Below are positions 48,665 through 64,000 of a stretch of DNA of 64,000 nucleotides, one piece after another. Position numbers and translations under genes: made by a program. Source of the DNA: Octopus vulgaris (taxonomy: Eukaryota); NCBI GenBank assembly GCA_951406725.2, contig OX597822.1, forward strand, positions 79,484,001 through 79,548,000, read 5' to 3'. The notes beneath the pieces are model-generated. The model was not told the origin of the DNA, did not search any database, and saw nothing but the letters and a program-made list of their open reading frames with translations. Each line of letters opens with the position of its first letter. Position 1 is the first letter of the stretch.

Positions 48665-49007
48665 TTACATTGGATGATAATAGAATTAATGACACCTTCG
48701 TAAATTAATTTTTGGCATATATATATATATATAATATGGTCTTGCTAAATTATCTATTAAAGGATGGCAAGTAATATTATTTGCTAAAGAAATTCGAAAC
48801 CATGGTATAACCGTTAAATAACAAGGTAAAAGTTTTTATTTTTCATCTACTTCGAAATTTGCTATTAAATTGTGGTTTTTTGGCCGTGTTGGCTGCTATT
48901 TCTAGCATGTAAAAATTACCTATTAAAGGGTAATTTTCTATTTTGAAATATGAATATATATATATGTAGTTTACAGTATAAGATGCATAGAAGGTGCTTG
49001 TAAGGAC

Positions 49008-49262
49008 ATGAACATAATGTACATAGGGAAGATGTCTAGGAGCATTGCGGAACGGATAAATGAACATCTAAGACAATATGACGACAGAAAACAGTCCTCC
49101 ATACTCTACCAACATGCCAAAGACCACCATGGAGGTAACTTGGGTCAACTTGACACCCGCATATTATCCAAGTACCCAAAAGACCCAACACTCAGACAAA
49201 TACGGGAGTACGTCCTTATAAATGAAACTTCCCCAATACTAAATAGGAAATATACACAATAA
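49008..49262 (+). mobile_element. Penelope GIY-YIG endonuclease fragment
   Basis: YIGKMSRSIAERINEH...LYQHAKDHH...RQIREYVLINETSPILN. Confidence 0.82.
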
Positions 49263-50056: not shown

Positions 50057-50398
50057 ACTTATAAATAAGGGCAAACGAAAAAACTTCTAATGCCAAATAT
50101 GCCAAAAATTGGATATATTGTCCATTTACCATATAATTTTTCCCAGTACGCACGCTACTCGAAAAAAGGTCGACAGAAATCTCTAAAAAATTCCATTATT
50201 ACCATATCGGACCGATTTCAGGGTTAGTTCAAAAAGAAATCGGACCGATATGGTAATAATGGAATTTTTAGAGATTTCTGTCGAACCTTTTTCGAGTAGC
50301 GTGAGTACTGGGAAAACTTTTATGGTAATGGACAATATGTCCAATTTTTGGCATATTTGGCATTAGAAATTTTTTCGTTTGCCCTTATTTATAAGTTG
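50055..50398. repeat. Long hairpin: ~165-bp inverted arms, 16-bp loop
   Basis: 50055-50219 is the reverse complement of 50236-50398 with scattered mismatches. Confidence 0.93.
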
Positions 50399-57075: not shown

Positions 57076-57222
57076 GGTATCGTCTGCTCTATAATGGAAA
57101 GCACCGCATTAATATTTTTTCTTATGATAGTCGGTCCCAAACTTCATCCGATTATCCTAATCCCTTTACTAAGCAGTGTGCTCTGCTTGAAAATAGTTTC
57201 ACTGTCTTTTAAACAGGGATTG
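57076..57222 (+). CDS. CHS: Chitin synthase exon
   Basis: tattttcag| ... |gtaagt; 147 bp, phase 0/0; hydrophobic GIVCSIMESTALIFFLMIVGPKLHPIILIPLLSSVLCLKIVSLSFKQGL. Confidence 0.83.
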
Positions 57223-57684
57223 GTAAGTATTTAGCTATTCGAAGATATATCAGTTGTTTAATGCATTCCTTTGCATTTATTAATATGCATGTATATAAAA
57301 AGCTCAGACTGGATAACGCTTGGAAAATAAACCAACTTACACACTGCATATATTAACATACATTAACATATCTATTCTATATATCCTTTCTATGGATGTA
57401 TATCCATGTTTTTTGTGGAAATATGTGAAGAGTGATATTGTACCGTCCATGGATGCACGAGTATATAACGGTGTCATGAAGTTCAATGACACCGTTTTAT
57501 AAATTATATACACAGACTGTCAAAATATGAACTTTATTCTACATCTGTATTGAATATTCTTTATCCGATTCATGAAATGCTTTTACATTGCATACATACG
57601 TATATACATACATACATACATACATACATACATACGTACGTACGTAACGTATGTACATGCATACACACACACACATACATATAT

Positions 57685-57982
57685 ATCACCGTGATCACCG
57701 TGACCGACCGGGCTATCAGATGTTGCTACACATCGCTGGTCACAATGCGCTTCGCATTGTTTTAGCCTTCAAATGACGCCACCCCGCTGGCTAAGCGAGC
57801 AGGCCAACTGAAAAAAAGGTGAGAGAAAGTTGTGGCGAAAGAGTACAGCAGGGATCGCCACTACCTTCTGCCGGAGCCTTGTGGAGCTTTTAGGTGTTTT
57901 CGCTCAATAAACACACACAACGCCCAGTCTGGGAATCGAAACCGCTATCCTCCGACCGCGAGTCCGCTGCCCTAACCACTGG

Positions 57983-57987
<5 letters not shown>
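57685..57987 (-). mobile_element. SINE copy, head cut off by (TA)n
   Basis: 57820-57987 matches the head of the 13992/38641 family, but the tail differs. Confidence 0.7.
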
Positions 57988-58025
<38 letters not shown>

Positions 58026-58065
58026 TCTCACTTTCAGTGTTTTCAAATCCAAACCAAGGAGTTTC

Positions 58066-58117
58066 TGAGCTGATGATAGAAGTGTCTTGATGACTAATCT
58101 TGAAACGTACGTTCTCA
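58066..58117 (+). ncRNA. Type I hammerhead, copy 1
   Basis: tgag-CTGATGA-taga...tctt-GAAA-cgtacg-TT-ctca; palindrome acgtacgt; GUU triplet, predicted cut after 58113. Confidence 0.83.
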
Positions 58118-58626
58118 AATAACCTTTGCATTTGATTTTTTTATGTCTTTACCCCCAAACTTTCGTGAGTTGAGTTGACCAAACACTATACGAGAGAGAT
58201 TTTCTTTAAGTATTAGAAATGGTTTTTAAAAAAGTTTTTTAGCTGCTATTTCTAATGAGTTCAGTATGCGGCAAAGTAATTTATTTTACTAAGCCCTTTT
58301 ATATATTGTAATAATTTGAATTCGCCTTAAATGGTCCCTTTGCATACTGAACACTTGGTGAAATTAATTAATAATTAATTAATTTTACCCTCAATTGTTG
58401 AAATTATAATTAATCTCCCTCTAATTAATGCTTCGGATTTTACCGAAATAAGCAGAGTGTTTGTTGATTTTAACCCACGCTGGTGGAAAGGGGAGAGCAG
58501 AAATTCTTCGCTTGCATGTTTGAGTTTGTTGGCACTGTTAGTTACGAGCAGATCTTCGAAAGCGATGAGAGGCCGAAGGAGTATGCTCTCACTTTCAGTG
58601 TTTTCAAATCCAAACCAAGGAGTTTC

Positions 58627-58678
58627 TGAGCTGATGATAGAAGTGTCTTGATGACTAATCTTGAAACGTACGTTCTCA
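58627..58678 (+). ncRNA. Type I hammerhead, copy 2
   Basis: Identical to copy 1; predicted cut after 58674. Confidence 0.83.
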
Positions 58679-58869
58679 AATAACCTTTGCATTTGATTTT
58701 TTTATGTCTTTACCCCCAAACTTTCGTGAGTTGAGTTGACCAAACACTATACGAGAGAGATTTTCTTTAAGTATTAGAAATGGTTTTTAAAAAAGTTTTT
58801 TAGCTGCTATTTCTAATGAGTTCAGTATGCGGCAAAGTAATTTATTTTACTAAGCCCTTTTATATATTG

Positions 58870-58949
<80 letters not shown>

Positions 58950-59049
58950 TACATACAGACAAACACATAGAGGAAATAATTATGCAATAACTGCCCACTC
59001 ACGCGTATATGCTAGCAATGAAATATATCCATGTATTGTGTGAATGTTT

Positions 59050-60640
59050 GTGAGCCGCACCTATACAAATGCGCCTATTTTTAGTGTAGATTGAACGAGG
59101 ATATCTACACTAGACGCCAGAAGTATGAGGAGTGTTTGAGCATTTGTGATTGAATGTGAGACGAGGGCAATGACATCCGCGAAGTCGAAACCAGTGAGGT
59201 AGGATACTGGACGACATGAACCTTGCCGGGAACAAAGAGTTATGCCTTGTTCAAATAATGTAGCATGCCGTAATACATGACCCAAGATTATAGTGAAAAG
59301 GAAAGGCGTTAAGGTGTCCTCTTGGAGTACTCCTGCGAATGTGACGGTGCCTCCGTCAGGGGTGCATACGAGACATTTGTAGTTTGCATAGATAGAGAGG
59401 ATAGCATTTACAACTTCGTTTGGCTTGCTGTTAGCAGAGGGAATCTGAAACATTCGCTTACGGTGGACAAAGAAAAAGCTCTGAGGAAATTCCCAGAGTA
59501 GGCGCACACAGACTTACGTTTCTTTGCTGAGATTGTTTCAATGAATCGGCGAAGAGTTAAAATAGGTTCGAGAGTGGAGAGGCCTTTGCGAAAGTTGTTT
59601 TGGTTTGATCTGAGTAGTGTTTCGATAGGGTTTCGGATGTAATGAACATGATACAGTTGAAGAGTTTTGCTGAGCATGACATCAAGGTGATGCCATGATA
59701 CGAGCCATATTCTGATAGATCTCTCTTCTTCGGAACAGGAATGATGCGGTTCAGCTTGAATTTCGATGGAGCTTGAGTGGGGATGTAAGTAGAATTTAGA
59801 ATAGGAAGAAGTAAAAAGAAGTCAACCTGGAAGCACACCGTCAACGCCACACGATTTGCCAGTCTTAAGCTGTTTAGCGGCAGTTAATACTTCTCTGAGA
59901 GTAATCTTACCATTTGGAATATTGGTGAGCAGCGGTGGGATTGGCATCACAATTAAGTTTTCTGTGAGATATTTATTGCTATTGAACCGCTTTTCAAAGT
60001 GGAATTTCTAGACTGCTAGCATATCTTGCGGGTTGAAAATGCTGGTGTGGGTGATCTTACACTTTCATGGGGGCCAATTGAGTCAGTTAGCGATTTCTGC
60101 TACTTCAGCTCTCGTGGGTTGCTCTACCAGGACAGTTGTTAACCTTCGTAAAACGATAGTATGGTCAGCATTCGACAAGTTATGGAAATTTTGGGAAACA
60201 CCACAATTGTTATGCGGCCTAAAACTGCCCTGTTTCGTGCTACAGTCGTATATATTCTGCTCTAAGACTGTAGATACTGGCCTCCTACGGCGGCCGAAAA
60301 GCGATCACTAGACGGCACATACACTCGACTTCTGTGCAAGGCTTTTAACATCTCTTGCAGTAGCCATATATTAAGCAAGCCACTATATGAATCTTTACTG
60401 TCCATCAGCCGGACAGTCAAAGACGGATAAAGTTCGCAGGCCATTTGTTTCATCAAATAGGCCAGCCTGTCATTGTCCTATGGACCCCGTGGGGACGTTA
60501 AAGCCTGTCCTGTGCACGTATGAGGGACACAAGACTGTGTACTGTCTCAGATTTGACACGTGTAATGTCATCTCGCACAACATGGGGAAAAGATTTGCTC
60601 ATGGGTTGGAGTCGACATCCACAAGTGTGGCGTAGATGAT
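59050..60640. mobile_element. Decayed RTE-type LINE with 5' inversion
   Basis: Minus-strand RT at 59050-60130 (IIPVPKKRDLS, YHGITLMS, GVLQEDTLTPFLF, FDFADVIAL); plus-strand post-RT region at 60150-60640 (WSAFDKLWKFW, SLDGTYTRLL). Confidence 0.82.
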
Positions 60641-60658
60641 CACAAACACACACACTCA

Positions 60659-60700
<42 letters not shown>

Positions 60701-60856
60701 ATTATGGGTGCAGGCGTGGCTTATAGTTGTGGTAAGGAACTTGTTTCTCAGCCACATGGTTTCAGATTCTGTCCAACTGCAAGTAATTTTACAATAGCCT
60801 TGGGCCAACCAAATCCTTGTTACTGGATGAAGTAGACTGAAACCGAAAGAAACTCG

Positions 60857-60906
<50 letters not shown>

Positions 60907-61583
60907 TGTTGTGTCTGGGGAGAGTCATTCTCTTTTAGTGCCTTATTATTTAACACACCCACCGGTAAAATTTCCACTTATTTCTTATTTTTTATTTTCT
61001 AAAATTTTCGTTGCATCTTGCAACCTATACATGCATGTATGTACGTATGTATGTATGTGTGTGTGTGTGTGTTTGCATGTGTATGTATATATGTGTGTGT
61101 ATGCATATGTATGTATGTGTGTGTATCTGTATGTACGTATCCTGCATATTTATGTGCTTGCTTATCCGTGTTTGTGTATTTTCTATGTGTATGTGTGAGC
61201 ATGTGTTTGTATATGTATGCATCACTGTCTCCTTGTGTGTGCATGTCTGTGTGTGTGTGTGTGTTATGTAACTATGTACCATGTTTGTATGTATGGATGT
61301 GTATCTTTATATGTGTGGATCCGTGTCTCCATATGTGTTTGTTCATATAGTCTATATACCTATCTGTCTGTATATTGATCTGTTCATTTACATATCTAAA
61401 TGCTTATTTACACACACATGCACACACAGACATATGTATATATTTAACTATAAACGTCTCTTCACTTGCCAACAAATATATTCAGCTTTTGTATGAAATG
61501 CTGCCATGTAATATGGCCTACCCTTAGAAAATACCAAATTCTTAATACTTTTGTACTTATTTCTCTCTTTTCTTTTTTTCCAG

Positions 61584-62500
61584 CGCATATTGGGCCATAA
61601 TAACATCGATTCAAACACTAAAACGCTGAAGAATCTGATCTGTGTTGCATTCGGACTAATTTCTGTAATATTAGTTGTGGCCGCATCGTTTATGACTGGT
61701 TTTAGCCAAATCTTGACTACTTCAGAATCTCTCATTCTCTCCACATCCTTATTGGCTTTATCTTTCACGTGGTGTCCTGGAATAGCAACATTTACATTAC
61801 GACCCCGAGCTGACTTCGTTGATGGTCGTAAAAATGCCAGTATAATTTATACCATTTTGAAATTGGTAGTACTTTTTGTCTTAACCGTTGCTGTAATTCA
61901 CTTAAACCACCAGAACAGCTTCGAAGAATCATTTTACAGCTTATTGCAAGGTTTCCTCAATATAAACTCAACAAAAACCATCAGCAATGGACTCTTGATT
62001 CACCTCTTTGCTGGTTTATTATCTCACGTATCTACTTACATATCAACACGAATATGCCTTACACGTAGTGGTATTTACCTACCAACAATATTTGTCACTC
62101 CGATCACAATCTTGATCATCATTGTTGACAATTTCTATGGAGTTTTTCATATCGTAAAGTTGTCTGCCCTGTCAGGATTAACTCTTGCTTCGTGGTTTTG
62201 TTTCGGAATTGCAATTTTACTTTGGTTGTTACCAATTCTAATGCTGGGCATGAACCATACACCTGTACCAAATTCCATACTGAAATCTTCGGAATCGAAC
62301 TTCTTAAGTTTTACTTACAACAATATCTTCCTCGAACATCATTTGCATTTGAATTACAGACCGGAAGGGATTCATACCAGACAGGATAAGACAAGTGAAA
62401 TGTTGACCGGGGTACCCAGCGTGAGCAAAGTTTTTATATGTACAACCATGTATAGAGAAGCAGAATTCGAAATGAAGCGACTCCTGAAAAGTTTAGAAGG
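61584..62500 (+). CDS. CHS: Chitin synthase large exon (transmembrane region to start of the GT2 catalytic domain); gene continues beyond the window
   Basis: Strong acceptor tctttttttccag| and donor |gtaaat; 917 bp open; multi-pass TM segments, [15 protein letters not shown] and [22 protein letters not shown] (metazoan CHS CxTM(W/Y)xE motif). Confidence 0.9.
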
Positions 62501-62699: not shown

Positions 62700-63530
62700 T
62701 GTGGAGTGGGAAGGTGTTGTGGGTGTGTATGTGATGTGTGAAGTGAATGATTAGTTGCACAGTATGTATGGGTGTTTGTATAGTAGTGATTGTGGGTGAG
62801 GGTACTGAGGTGGGCGGTATGCAAGTGTGTAGGTGGCGGGTGCGGGCGGTGAGTGGGAATCCTTATGGGATTGGTATCAAAGGAAGAGAGGAGGTGAGGT
62901 TGGTATAAGATGAAGAGAGAAGGTTAGTTGAGCCCTGTGGCACAAAGGAACGAAGAGAGAAGATTAATTCCTGTTCACGATGTAGGCGGGAGTCCGGGTG
63001 GGCCCTGTGCAGAGACAATTCAAACACAGAGAAATATAGCAAATGACTAATAGAGAGGAAATGGGGCGTCATTGCCGAGTCTGATTCCTGGAGGTGCTCC
63101 GCGAGCCAGTTAGCCAAGTGGCGTCCCAGTTGACCAATGCACAGGGAAGGACAGAGAGAGCAGGAGATGCAGTAAATAGCATTACTAGAGGTGCAGGTAA
63201 AGAAGTCGGTGACGTGATAGGGACGGTGATGGGTGCCTGTGAGGATGGTGGTGTTGGAGAGGTAGGGGCAGGCGCGACAGCGTAGGCGGGAGCAGGGGAA
63301 GGAACCAGGCTGGGAGACGGTAGTAGGGAAGAAACTGTGGACCAGGAGGTCACGCAGGTTATGGGCGCGTTTGAAGGAAGGAAGGAAGGGGTAGGTTAGG
63401 GAAGATGTGCGAGGTGGATGGGTCGGACTGGAGTCGCCGGAAGGTTCGGAGAATGGTTCGTGGAGGGTTAGGGTGGAGGGGTCGTAGGTAAGGGGAAACG
63501 GAAAGATGTGGTTGGAAATCAAACTTTTTG
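62700..63530 (-). mobile_element. Penelope-like element C-terminal fragment (Zn motif plus GIY-YIG)
   Basis: FKRAHNLRDLLVHS, PCSRLRCRACPY, FTCTSSNAIYCISCSLC and CIGQLGRHLANWLAEH. Confidence 0.88.
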
Positions 63531-64000
63531 TGCCACAGCGACAACTGCGCCTATATATAATTTCATTACACTAGAATTAGAGACAAAACATGTAGACAAT
63601 GCACAGAGAGTTGCACTTGGCTCTGATTTGTAAATATGTAATAAAGGTGATCGAGAAGTAAAGTTAGCAATGATTTTGTTGCTGTAATTATGATTCTTTG
63701 TTCTATTTCGGTAGGGCCATTATGTCAATAATAAGCACTGGTTCTATTTCACTTCTTCATTTATTTGTCAATTGGTTGACTACTTAATCAATTAACTAAC
63801 TGATTGTTTAATTAATTGTTAAGTTAAACAGTTAATCAGCTAGGTTTGTCAAAGTCTTTTTGTCGCCATTTGCGACGTCACGAAGACATGCCCTCTCTAC
63901 TTGAAGTCCATTTCAGATTTGCCTGTCTGAATTTGTCAGTTGCATCTTTTTGCTTTCATTAAATTTCTTCTGTGAATTCCAGATTATCCTTGTCGAAAAA

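What the first reader, a model, noticed from the sequence alone, without database searches (positions are those of the whole stretch)
58021..58874. Tandem double hammerhead in sense orientation inside a chitin synthase intron: candidate 561-nt retrozyme/circular RNA
Seen: two identical 293-bp direct repeats 561 bp apart, each with a complete type I hammerhead (CUGAUGA, GAAA, GUU triplet, stem I tgag/ctca). Stem III is the self-complementary acgtacgt, and both ends of the unit abut (TA)n. Known: minimal PLE/retrozyme hammerheads with palindromic stem III cleave as dimers, and tandem copies release monomers that can circularise. Inference: the unit is on the same strand as the CHS pre-mRNA (intron 57223-61583), so host transcription could supply both halves of a double hammerhead, excise a 561-nt RNA (58114-58674) and cut the intron co-transcriptionally.
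Basis: partly seen in the sequence, partly recalled or inferred. Interest (0 to 1): 0.82.

Follow-up and report, generated by a model that had tools for sequence, protein, structure and literature searches.

The report
Octopus retrozyme with two-handed insertion rule
This is a recent copy of a small, protein-free jumping element carrying a predicted self-cutting RNA, and its position in a chitin synthase intron is likely chance; the more telling result is that the family's two-armed copies always pair one long end with one short end, which likely means both strands of the cut DNA copy the same RNA from two fixed start points.

Summary
Observation confirmed. There are two identical 293-bp repeats 561 bp apart, each with a type I hammerhead, on the sense strand of a chitin synthase intron between (TA)n tracts. 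It is not an assembly duplication: it is one copy of a young, dispersed Octopus family of 561-bp tandem units, i.e. a non-LTR retrozyme (non-autonomous Penelope-like element, PLE). A sense intronic position needs no special explanation; 46 of 66 copies are two-armed and inverted. The family data say more than the locus. Copies end at one of two fixed sites, unit position ~290 (A) or ~388 (B). All 41 classifiable head-to-head insertions pair A with B (P=4.5e-13). A sister family (9 of 11) and an autonomous PLE in the same genome (19 of 20, one B+B) follow the same rule. Both arms of a copy share one haplotype. Best model: a PLE protein dimer cuts both strands of (TA)n and primes two cDNAs at the two edges of one structured RNA tail. 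A monomer circle is likely but unproven. Cleavage, circles and expression were not tested, and the mobilising PLE was not identified. The scan's earlier notes held nothing related.

The parts
57076..57222 (+). Chitin synthase-like exon upstream of the host intron
   Evidence: tblastn of O. bimaculoides/O. sinensis proteins and in-frame join to 61584
57223..61583 (+). Host intron (GT..AG)
57986..58023 (.). Left (TA)n target tract; 3-nt TAT overlap with the element's truncated 5' end
58021..58874 (+). Retrozyme insertion: one-armed, 1.52 units of the 561-bp monomer, ending at site A (no tail)
58021..58313 (+). Repeat copy 1 (unit positions 1-293)
58066..58117 (+). Type I hammerhead 1, predicted cut after 58113
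   Evidence: sequence; core positions vary in at most 2 of ~170 passes
58114..58674 (+). Predicted 561-nt monomer or circle between the two cut sites
   Evidence: inferred; circular fold -150.5 kcal/mol, z -6.6 against 25 shuffles
58201..58408 (+). Conserved structured domain (hairpin, long stem enclosing site A, tail hairpin); likely protein-binding and priming platform
   Evidence: 70% identity to the sister family in this region only; 3 of 29 predicted pairs with compensatory change in 4 sequences
58311..58408 (+). ~98-nt tail between site A (unit ~290) and site B (unit ~388)
   Evidence: 3' ends of the 66 insertions
58582..58874 (+). Repeat copy 2; ends at site A
58627..58678 (+). Type I hammerhead 2, predicted cut after 58674
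58875..58955 (.). Right (TA)n target tract
61584..62500 (+). Chitin synthase-like exon downstream of the intron

Best explanation
The repeat is a recent insertion of a young, protein-free 561-bp tandem element with a type I hammerhead, likely moved by a Penelope-like retroelement's enzyme that is predicted to cut both strands of a (TA)n tract and prime reverse transcription at two fixed internal sites of one RNA. Shown: 3' ends fall at site A (~290) or site B (~388); two-armed copies pair A with B; arms and units of one copy share a haplotype. Inferred: a dimeric RT-endonuclease binds the structured domain at unit 181-388. One DNA end primes at B and copies the tail, the other primes at A, and the two cDNAs are joined head to head at variable points. 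When only one arm survives, a one-armed copy results, like this A-type one. Inferred, weaker: the hammerheads fold as a dimer, perhaps with protein help, and release a monomer that circularises. Reverse transcription round the circle would explain arrays of up to 12 units with variants fixed in every unit, although some copies look like products of multimeric templates. The chitin synthase intron is a chance landing site; its transcription could feed the cycle, but this is untested.
For: Family: 198 matches at 93-100% identity from 40 of 1592 candidates scored; 845 exact hits to the tail-hairpin motif shared with the sister family. Ends: 108 of 112 outer ends have (TA)4 within 25 nt. 41 of 41 classifiable two-armed copies are A+B, P=4.5e-13 at 50:50; 5 more have one non-canonical end. 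Sister family: 9 of 11 two-armed copies A+B, 2 with one non-canonical end. Autonomous 727-aa PLE: 19 of 20 A+B. Shared template: discordance at 22 informative sites is 23/4139 within arms, 41/1667 between arms and 36% between loci; 25 of 32 arm pairs are fully concordant against 3.6 expected; 11 rare variants occur in every unit of both arms. In 7 of 39 copies neither arm contains the other, which excludes fold-back for those. 5' ends do not pile up at the cut site (5 of 115 against 4.3 expected) and 95 of 115 arms span a whole hammerhead. In vitro, the Anolis PLE protein cleaves and extends both strands, starts at two internal sites bounding the tail, and is predicted to be a dimer (PMC11167929).
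Against: The mobilising PLE was not found: none of the PLE ORF fragments in 60 loci from two protein searches is attached to the unit as a pLTR (the few hits were separate retrozyme insertions), and the autonomous family that obeys the rule has an unrelated tail. One B+B exception in that family (L222/L243). Unit-specific variants in register in both arms (L026 three substitutions; L029, L048, L043) point to multimeric templates or later conversion rather than a pure monomer circle; L049 is mosaic and L006 differs between arms. PMC11167929 found no strand difference in start site in vitro and no need for hammerhead cleavage. The active hammerhead fold is not the predicted ground state.
Confidence: 0.68

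Rival explanations
1. One reading: the locus is notable because chitin synthase transcription drives a double hammerhead that excises a 561-nt circle and cuts the intron, with consequences for the host gene.
For: Sense orientation and two complete hammerheads; palindrome pairing between copies at P>=0.98; mussel and coral retrozymes make abundant circRNA (PMC7229834).
Against: The insertion is very young: no difference from the C14 copy over 1164 nt, and its junction variant occurs at only 3 loci. Nothing points to co-option. Orientation is uninformative. The active fold is 12.8 kcal/mol above the MFE. Slower hammerhead cleavage within an intron left splicing intact (PMC2995048).
Confidence: 0.15
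2. One priming event plus fold-back or endonuclease resolution: reverse transcription starts once, and the inverted arm arises by self-priming or DNA copying, ending at the other site during resolution.
For: Self-priming was proposed for PLE inverted junctions (PMC3846280) and EN-mediated resolution for the tail (PMC8557442). 4 of 39 copies are in-register palindromes against 1.1 expected, P=0.02. It explains shared haplotypes and in-register variants.
Against: In 7 of 39 copies neither arm contains the other; in 10 the B arm lies within the A arm and in 22 the reverse. Both A and B terminate one-armed copies (8 and 12 of 20), so both act as attachment sites on their own.
Confidence: 0.15
3. 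Uncleaved linear read-through multimers are the only templates. The hammerhead is conserved for another step, and unit identity comes from later unequal exchange or gene conversion.
For: Hammerhead mutants did not affect insertion in vitro (PMC11167929); in-register unit-specific variants and a 4-unit higher-order repeat in L043; 10 rare variants occur in only some units.
Against: 26 rare variants are fixed in all covered units while 100 remain in one unit, so homogenisation after insertion is not general. Without a circle or template jumps, arrays could only shrink, yet copies of two or more units persist across subfamilies.
Confidence: 0.3
4. Assembly artefact or ordinary satellite.
For: The two repeats are identical and flanked by microsatellites.
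Against: The same partial-tandem design with the same fixed 3' ends occurs at dozens of loci on many contigs.
Confidence: 0.02

Closest known systems
Metazoan non-LTR retrozymes (Cervera and de la Pena 2020, PMC7229834; Li et al., bioRxiv 10.64898/2026.07.22.740005)
   Same: Tandem non-coding units with a type I hammerhead, low GC (34%), a highly self-paired predicted circle, dispersed copies and arrays, and coexistence with PLEs; a mollusc example (mussel) is known.
   Different: The 561-nt unit is longer than the 170-400 nt invertebrate circles but within the 51-972 bp range of the preprint. Strict (TA)n targeting, two fixed ends and mostly head-to-head two-armed copies were not seen in the passages I read. 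RNA was not tested here.
EN+ Penelope-like elements: partial tandems, inverted 5' copy, tail (PMC8557442, PMC3846280)
   Same: 5'-truncated partial tandem, inverted adjacent copy, tail at one end, microsatellite target, hammerhead with palindromic helix III and an extra nucleotide after A9 (PMC4209133).
   Different: No ORF; the tail is ~98 nt rather than 30-40. The papers call the tail 'often' or 'optionally' at one end, whereas here it is at exactly one end in 41 of 41.
PAc Poseidon element of Anolis (Frangieh et al. 2024, PMC11167929)
   Same: Two internal RT start sites bounding the tail; AT-rich target; both strands cleaved and extended; hammerhead upstream of the start sites.
   Different: No strand preference of start site was seen in vitro. 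Here start sites are complementary between strands and lie in UA-rich segments resembling the target, whereas PAc starts at non-homologous AC-rich sequence.
L1 twin priming (recalled, not from a call)
   Same: Both target ends prime on the RNA and give an inverted arm.
   Different: In L1 the second site is variable and bounds the first arm. Here both sites are fixed and arms run through them for several units.

Membership tests
Non-LTR retrozyme | Tandem repeats of a few hundred bp, each with a type I hammerhead | tested here: met
   561-bp unit; 40 of 66 loci with two or more tandem hammerheads
Non-LTR retrozyme | No protein coding, GC below 50% | tested here: met
   GC 34%; longest stop-to-stop frames over the unit are 78-108 aa (not scanned against Pfam)
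Non-LTR retrozyme | Dispersed mobile copies | tested here: met
   Near-identical copies on many contigs with distinct junctions
Non-LTR retrozyme | Self-cleavage and accumulation as circular RNA | not testable with these tools
   Folding only; no read-level data obtained
Non-LTR retrozyme | Derivation from the pLTR of an autonomous PLE | tested here: inconclusive
   No ORF-linked copy among 66 loci or two PLE protein searches; only the best candidates were scored
Type I hammerhead (PLE type) | Conserved core CUGANGA, GAAA, UH | tested here: met
   12 core positions vary in 0-2 of ~170 passes each; the family is young, so this is weak evidence of selection; the core is also kept in the diverged sister family
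Type I hammerhead (PLE type) | Short palindromic helix III allowing dimer folding | tested here: met
   ACGUACGU; copy-to-copy pairing P>=0.98
Type I hammerhead (PLE type) | G10.1-C11.1 pair | tested here: not met
   A-U (with the extra nucleotide) or U.U at the base of helix II; this lowers expected activity, not the identification
EN+ PLE insertion signature | Partial tandem, inverted 5' copy, tail at one end, microsatellite target | tested here: met
Autonomous PLE | RT plus GIY-YIG ORF | tested here: not met
   No such ORF in the unit
Plant LTR retrozyme | Type III hammerhead in LTRs, 4-bp TSD | tested here: not met
   Type I topology; arrays up to 12 units; TSD not discernible in (TA)n

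The most novel reading that the evidence does not exclude
PLE insertion is an asymmetric two-handed reaction. One RNA, through one structured tail, hands two different start sites to the two strands of a double-strand cut, so the tail-at-one-end and head-to-head inverted structures of PLEs are a single rule. In this retrozyme the shared template can be a hammerhead-made circle read by two reverse transcriptases at once.
Probability: 0.4. Interest if true: 0.72.

Novelty: new member of a known kind. Interest (0 to 1): 0.48.

Why it matters
The locus alone is an ordinary young retrozyme insertion. The family bears on a question the PLE literature calls open: how complex tandem/inverted structures and one-sided tails form (PMC8557442). 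A 41-of-41 pairing rule, repeated in a sister family and in an autonomous PLE, with both arms from one haplotype, gives a sharp prediction for the existing in vitro PLE system. It also supplies a compact 561-nt natural substrate with mapped start sites. I found no description of an Octopus retrozyme or of this strict pairing in searches (open-access library only; supplements not read).

Tried and rejected
Rfam scan: no hammerhead family reported at E<=1; other hits were below their gathering scores and mostly in microsatellites. Folding the hammerhead alone: z about 0, with a misfold pairing GAGC/GUUC, so no support from stability. Sequencing-run search: no RNA holder listed; no read-level test of expression, cleavage or splicing was obtained. 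Autonomous partner: a protein search with the neighbouring Neptune-like fragment, a short-stem-II hammerhead pattern, the tail-motif pattern and a search with a PLE fragment beside a sister copy found no ORF-linked unit; the 727-aa family found has a different tail and no Pfam hit at E<=0.01. Pile-up of 5' ends at the cut site: not found. L1-type twin priming (inner end of one arm at the other's start): only isolated cases such as L042 and L048. Earlier scan notes: one unrelated archaeal-virus hit. PMC3365414 had no relevant passage. Orthologous empty sites in other octopuses could not be searched.

Full report
OBSERVATION. The window holds two identical 293-nt direct repeats at 58021-58313 and 58582-58874, 561 apart, between (TA)n tracts. 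Each carries a type I hammerhead: UGAG/CUCA stem I, CUGAUGA, a long irregular helix II, GAAA, the palindrome ACGUACGU and a GUU triplet, with cuts predicted after 58113 and 58674. Rfam reported no hammerhead family, but a relaxed motif is found 2 times in the window against 0.02 in 100 local shuffles. A protein 100% identical to the downstream exon is labelled Octopus vulgaris chitin synthase. Proteins of two other octopuses support the + strand intron 57223-61583, and the exons are open with EDR and QRRRW present.

WHAT IT IS. A search of the 2.8-Gb genome with one unit gave 198 matches at 93-100% identity from only 40 of 1592 candidates scored, including arrays of about 12 units. I analysed 66 non-redundant insertions taken from loci L001-L094, dropping 28 as duplicate views of the same insertion. 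They were selected by best full-unit score or by an exact hammerhead pattern, neither of which depends on end type. All are 5'-truncated tandems. 108 of 112 outer ends have (TA)4 within 25 nt, and 40 of 66 have two or more tandem hammerheads. The window's unit is identical to a 1164-nt arm on another contig, and its junction variant occurs at only 3 loci, so this copy is among the youngest. GC is 34% and there is no long ORF. This is a non-LTR retrozyme with the insertion signature of endonuclease-bearing Penelope-like elements.

THE END RULE. Outer ends fall at unit 283-298 (A) or 386-397 (B). Of the 66 insertions, 46 are head-to-head two-armed and 20 are one-armed (12 B, 8 A; the window's copy is A). 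All 41 two-armed copies with both ends classifiable are A+B, with none A+A or B+B (P=4.5e-13). The other 5 have one non-canonical, complex or gapped end. A sister family (592-bp unit, own hammerhead, 70% identical only over unit 181-388) has the homologous two ends: 9 of 11 two-armed copies among 30 loci are A+B and 2 have one non-canonical end. None of 17 further two-armed loci picked by the tail motif has two B ends (some duplicate each other, and the selection favours tails). An autonomous (TA)n-targeting PLE with a 727-aa ORF and an unrelated 70-nt tail is A+B in 19 of 20 classifiable copies; L222/L243 is a real B+B exception and 2 more had one unclassifiable end. The shared domain folds as a long stem whose open loop holds site A, followed by a hairpin just upstream of site B; 3 of 29 predicted pairs show compensatory change in 4 sequences (few sequences, weak test).

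ONE TEMPLATE. At 22 informative sites, discordance is 23/4139 between units of an arm, 41/1667 between arms of a copy and 36% between loci. 25 of 32 arm pairs are fully concordant where 3.6 are expected. Of rare variants covered at least twice, 11 are in all units of both arms, 15 in all units of one arm, 10 in some units and 100 in one unit. Shared haplotype shows a common source; it does not by itself prove one molecule, since one active locus per cell would do the same. Unit-specific variants in register in both arms (L026, three substitutions; L029; L048; L043) suggest that both arms began at the same tail of a multimeric RNA, or later conversion. L049 is mosaic and L006 differs between arms. 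In 7 of 39 copies neither arm contains the other, which excludes fold-back for those; 4 are in-register palindromes against 1.1 expected. 5' ends show no pile-up at the cut site (5 of 115 against 4.3), and 95 of 115 arms read across a whole hammerhead, so templates are ligated or uncut.

MECHANISM. Shown: fixed complementary ends, (TA)n target, haplotype sharing. Inferred: a dimeric PLE protein binds the 181-388 domain, cuts both strands of (TA)n, primes one cDNA at B and the other at A, and the two are joined at variable inner points. Inferred, weaker: tandem hammerheads fold as a dimer and release a monomer that circularises and regenerates multi-unit copies with fixed variants. Folding supports dimer over monomer: the palindromes of the two copies pair at P>=0.98, the double hammerhead costs 12.8 kcal/mol over the MFE and two single ones 17.2. 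Stem I has probability near 0 in the ensemble, so help from protein or co-transcriptional folding would be needed. The circular monomer folds at z -6.6 with the hammerhead unformed.

THE HOST GENE. Host transcription could produce the RNA, but nothing marks this site as special. Most copies are two-armed and inverted, intronic retrozymes are common in Xenopus (43.9% in X. tropicalis), and only 1 of 9 Xenopus dimers cleaved in vitro (bioRxiv 2026.07.22.740005). A slower hammerhead cut in an intron left splicing intact, while a fast ribozyme blocked it (as summarised in PMC2995048). No read-level evidence on expression, cleavage or splicing was obtained.

LITERATURE SEEN. bioRxiv 10.64898/2026.07.22.740005: parts 1-3 of 5, abstract to end of discussion. 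PMC11167929: parts 1-2 of 4, abstract, main text and start of methods. PMC8557442, PMC4209133, PMC3846280, PMC2995048: keyword passages. PMC7229834: passages and the mussel section. PMC3365414: nothing relevant. No supplements were read; they may list Octopus elements or end statistics. These papers describe inverted 5' copies, a tail 'often' at one end, two RT start sites and extension of both strands. I did not find strict A+B pairing, arm haplotype sharing or an Octopus retrozyme in searches. L1 twin priming and the clade labels given to PLE fragments are recalled.

VERDICT. It is a new member of a known kind (non-LTR retrozyme; circle formation and PLE parent untested or unresolved). The intronic setting scores low; the pairing rule makes an open question of PLE transposition directly testable. 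Interest 0.48.

Noticed in passing
window 48954-49262 (+): GIY-YIG endonuclease fragment (Pfam PF01541, E 2e-6), probably a truncated PLE, near (TA)n tracts.
   Followed up: partly
window 62866-63570 (-): PLE-like C-terminal fragment with a CxxC linker (Neptune-like by recall) in the next intron; 14306 first-look candidates in the genome.
   Followed up: partly
window 59061-59883 (-) and ~60100-60560 (+): Degenerate LINE-like reverse transcriptase fragments (RTE-like by recall; no convincing Pfam hit for the one piece scanned) in the same intron.
   Followed up: no
window ~57900-57985 (-): tRNA-like SINE head (by recall) directly abutting the left (TA)n tract.
   Followed up: no
window 50139-50316: Long hairpin with terminal inverted repeats, MITE-like (Rfam MIR4208 hit below gathering score).
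   Followed up: no
window 57076-57222; protein P0001: The O. vulgaris predicted protein skips this exon, the one just upstream of the retrozyme intron, and stops at 709 aa, whereas proteins of two other octopuses include it. Probably a gene-model error, but worth checking in RNA.
   Followed up: partly
L250:1418-2022 (G000:C15): Two-armed copy whose left arm ends at unit ~90, next to the hammerhead cut site, instead of at B; may record priming at a cleaved 3' end. Found after the count of 66.
   Followed up: partly
L043 (G000:C4:27947300-27955200): Ten-unit array with a 4-unit higher-order pattern of variants, suggesting later duplication or a multimeric template.
   Followed up: partly
L036 and L038: Two one-armed copies of different haplotype both stop at unit 99 with length 1412, five bases from the cut site.
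   Followed up: no
L125:2730-3090: Third, more diverged relative with the same tail hairpin.
   Followed up: partly
L225:3193-6534 (G000:C27): Abundant young autonomous PLE: 3341-bp unit, intact 727-aa frame, minimal hammerhead motif, (TA)n target; a candidate for in vitro work.
   Followed up: partly
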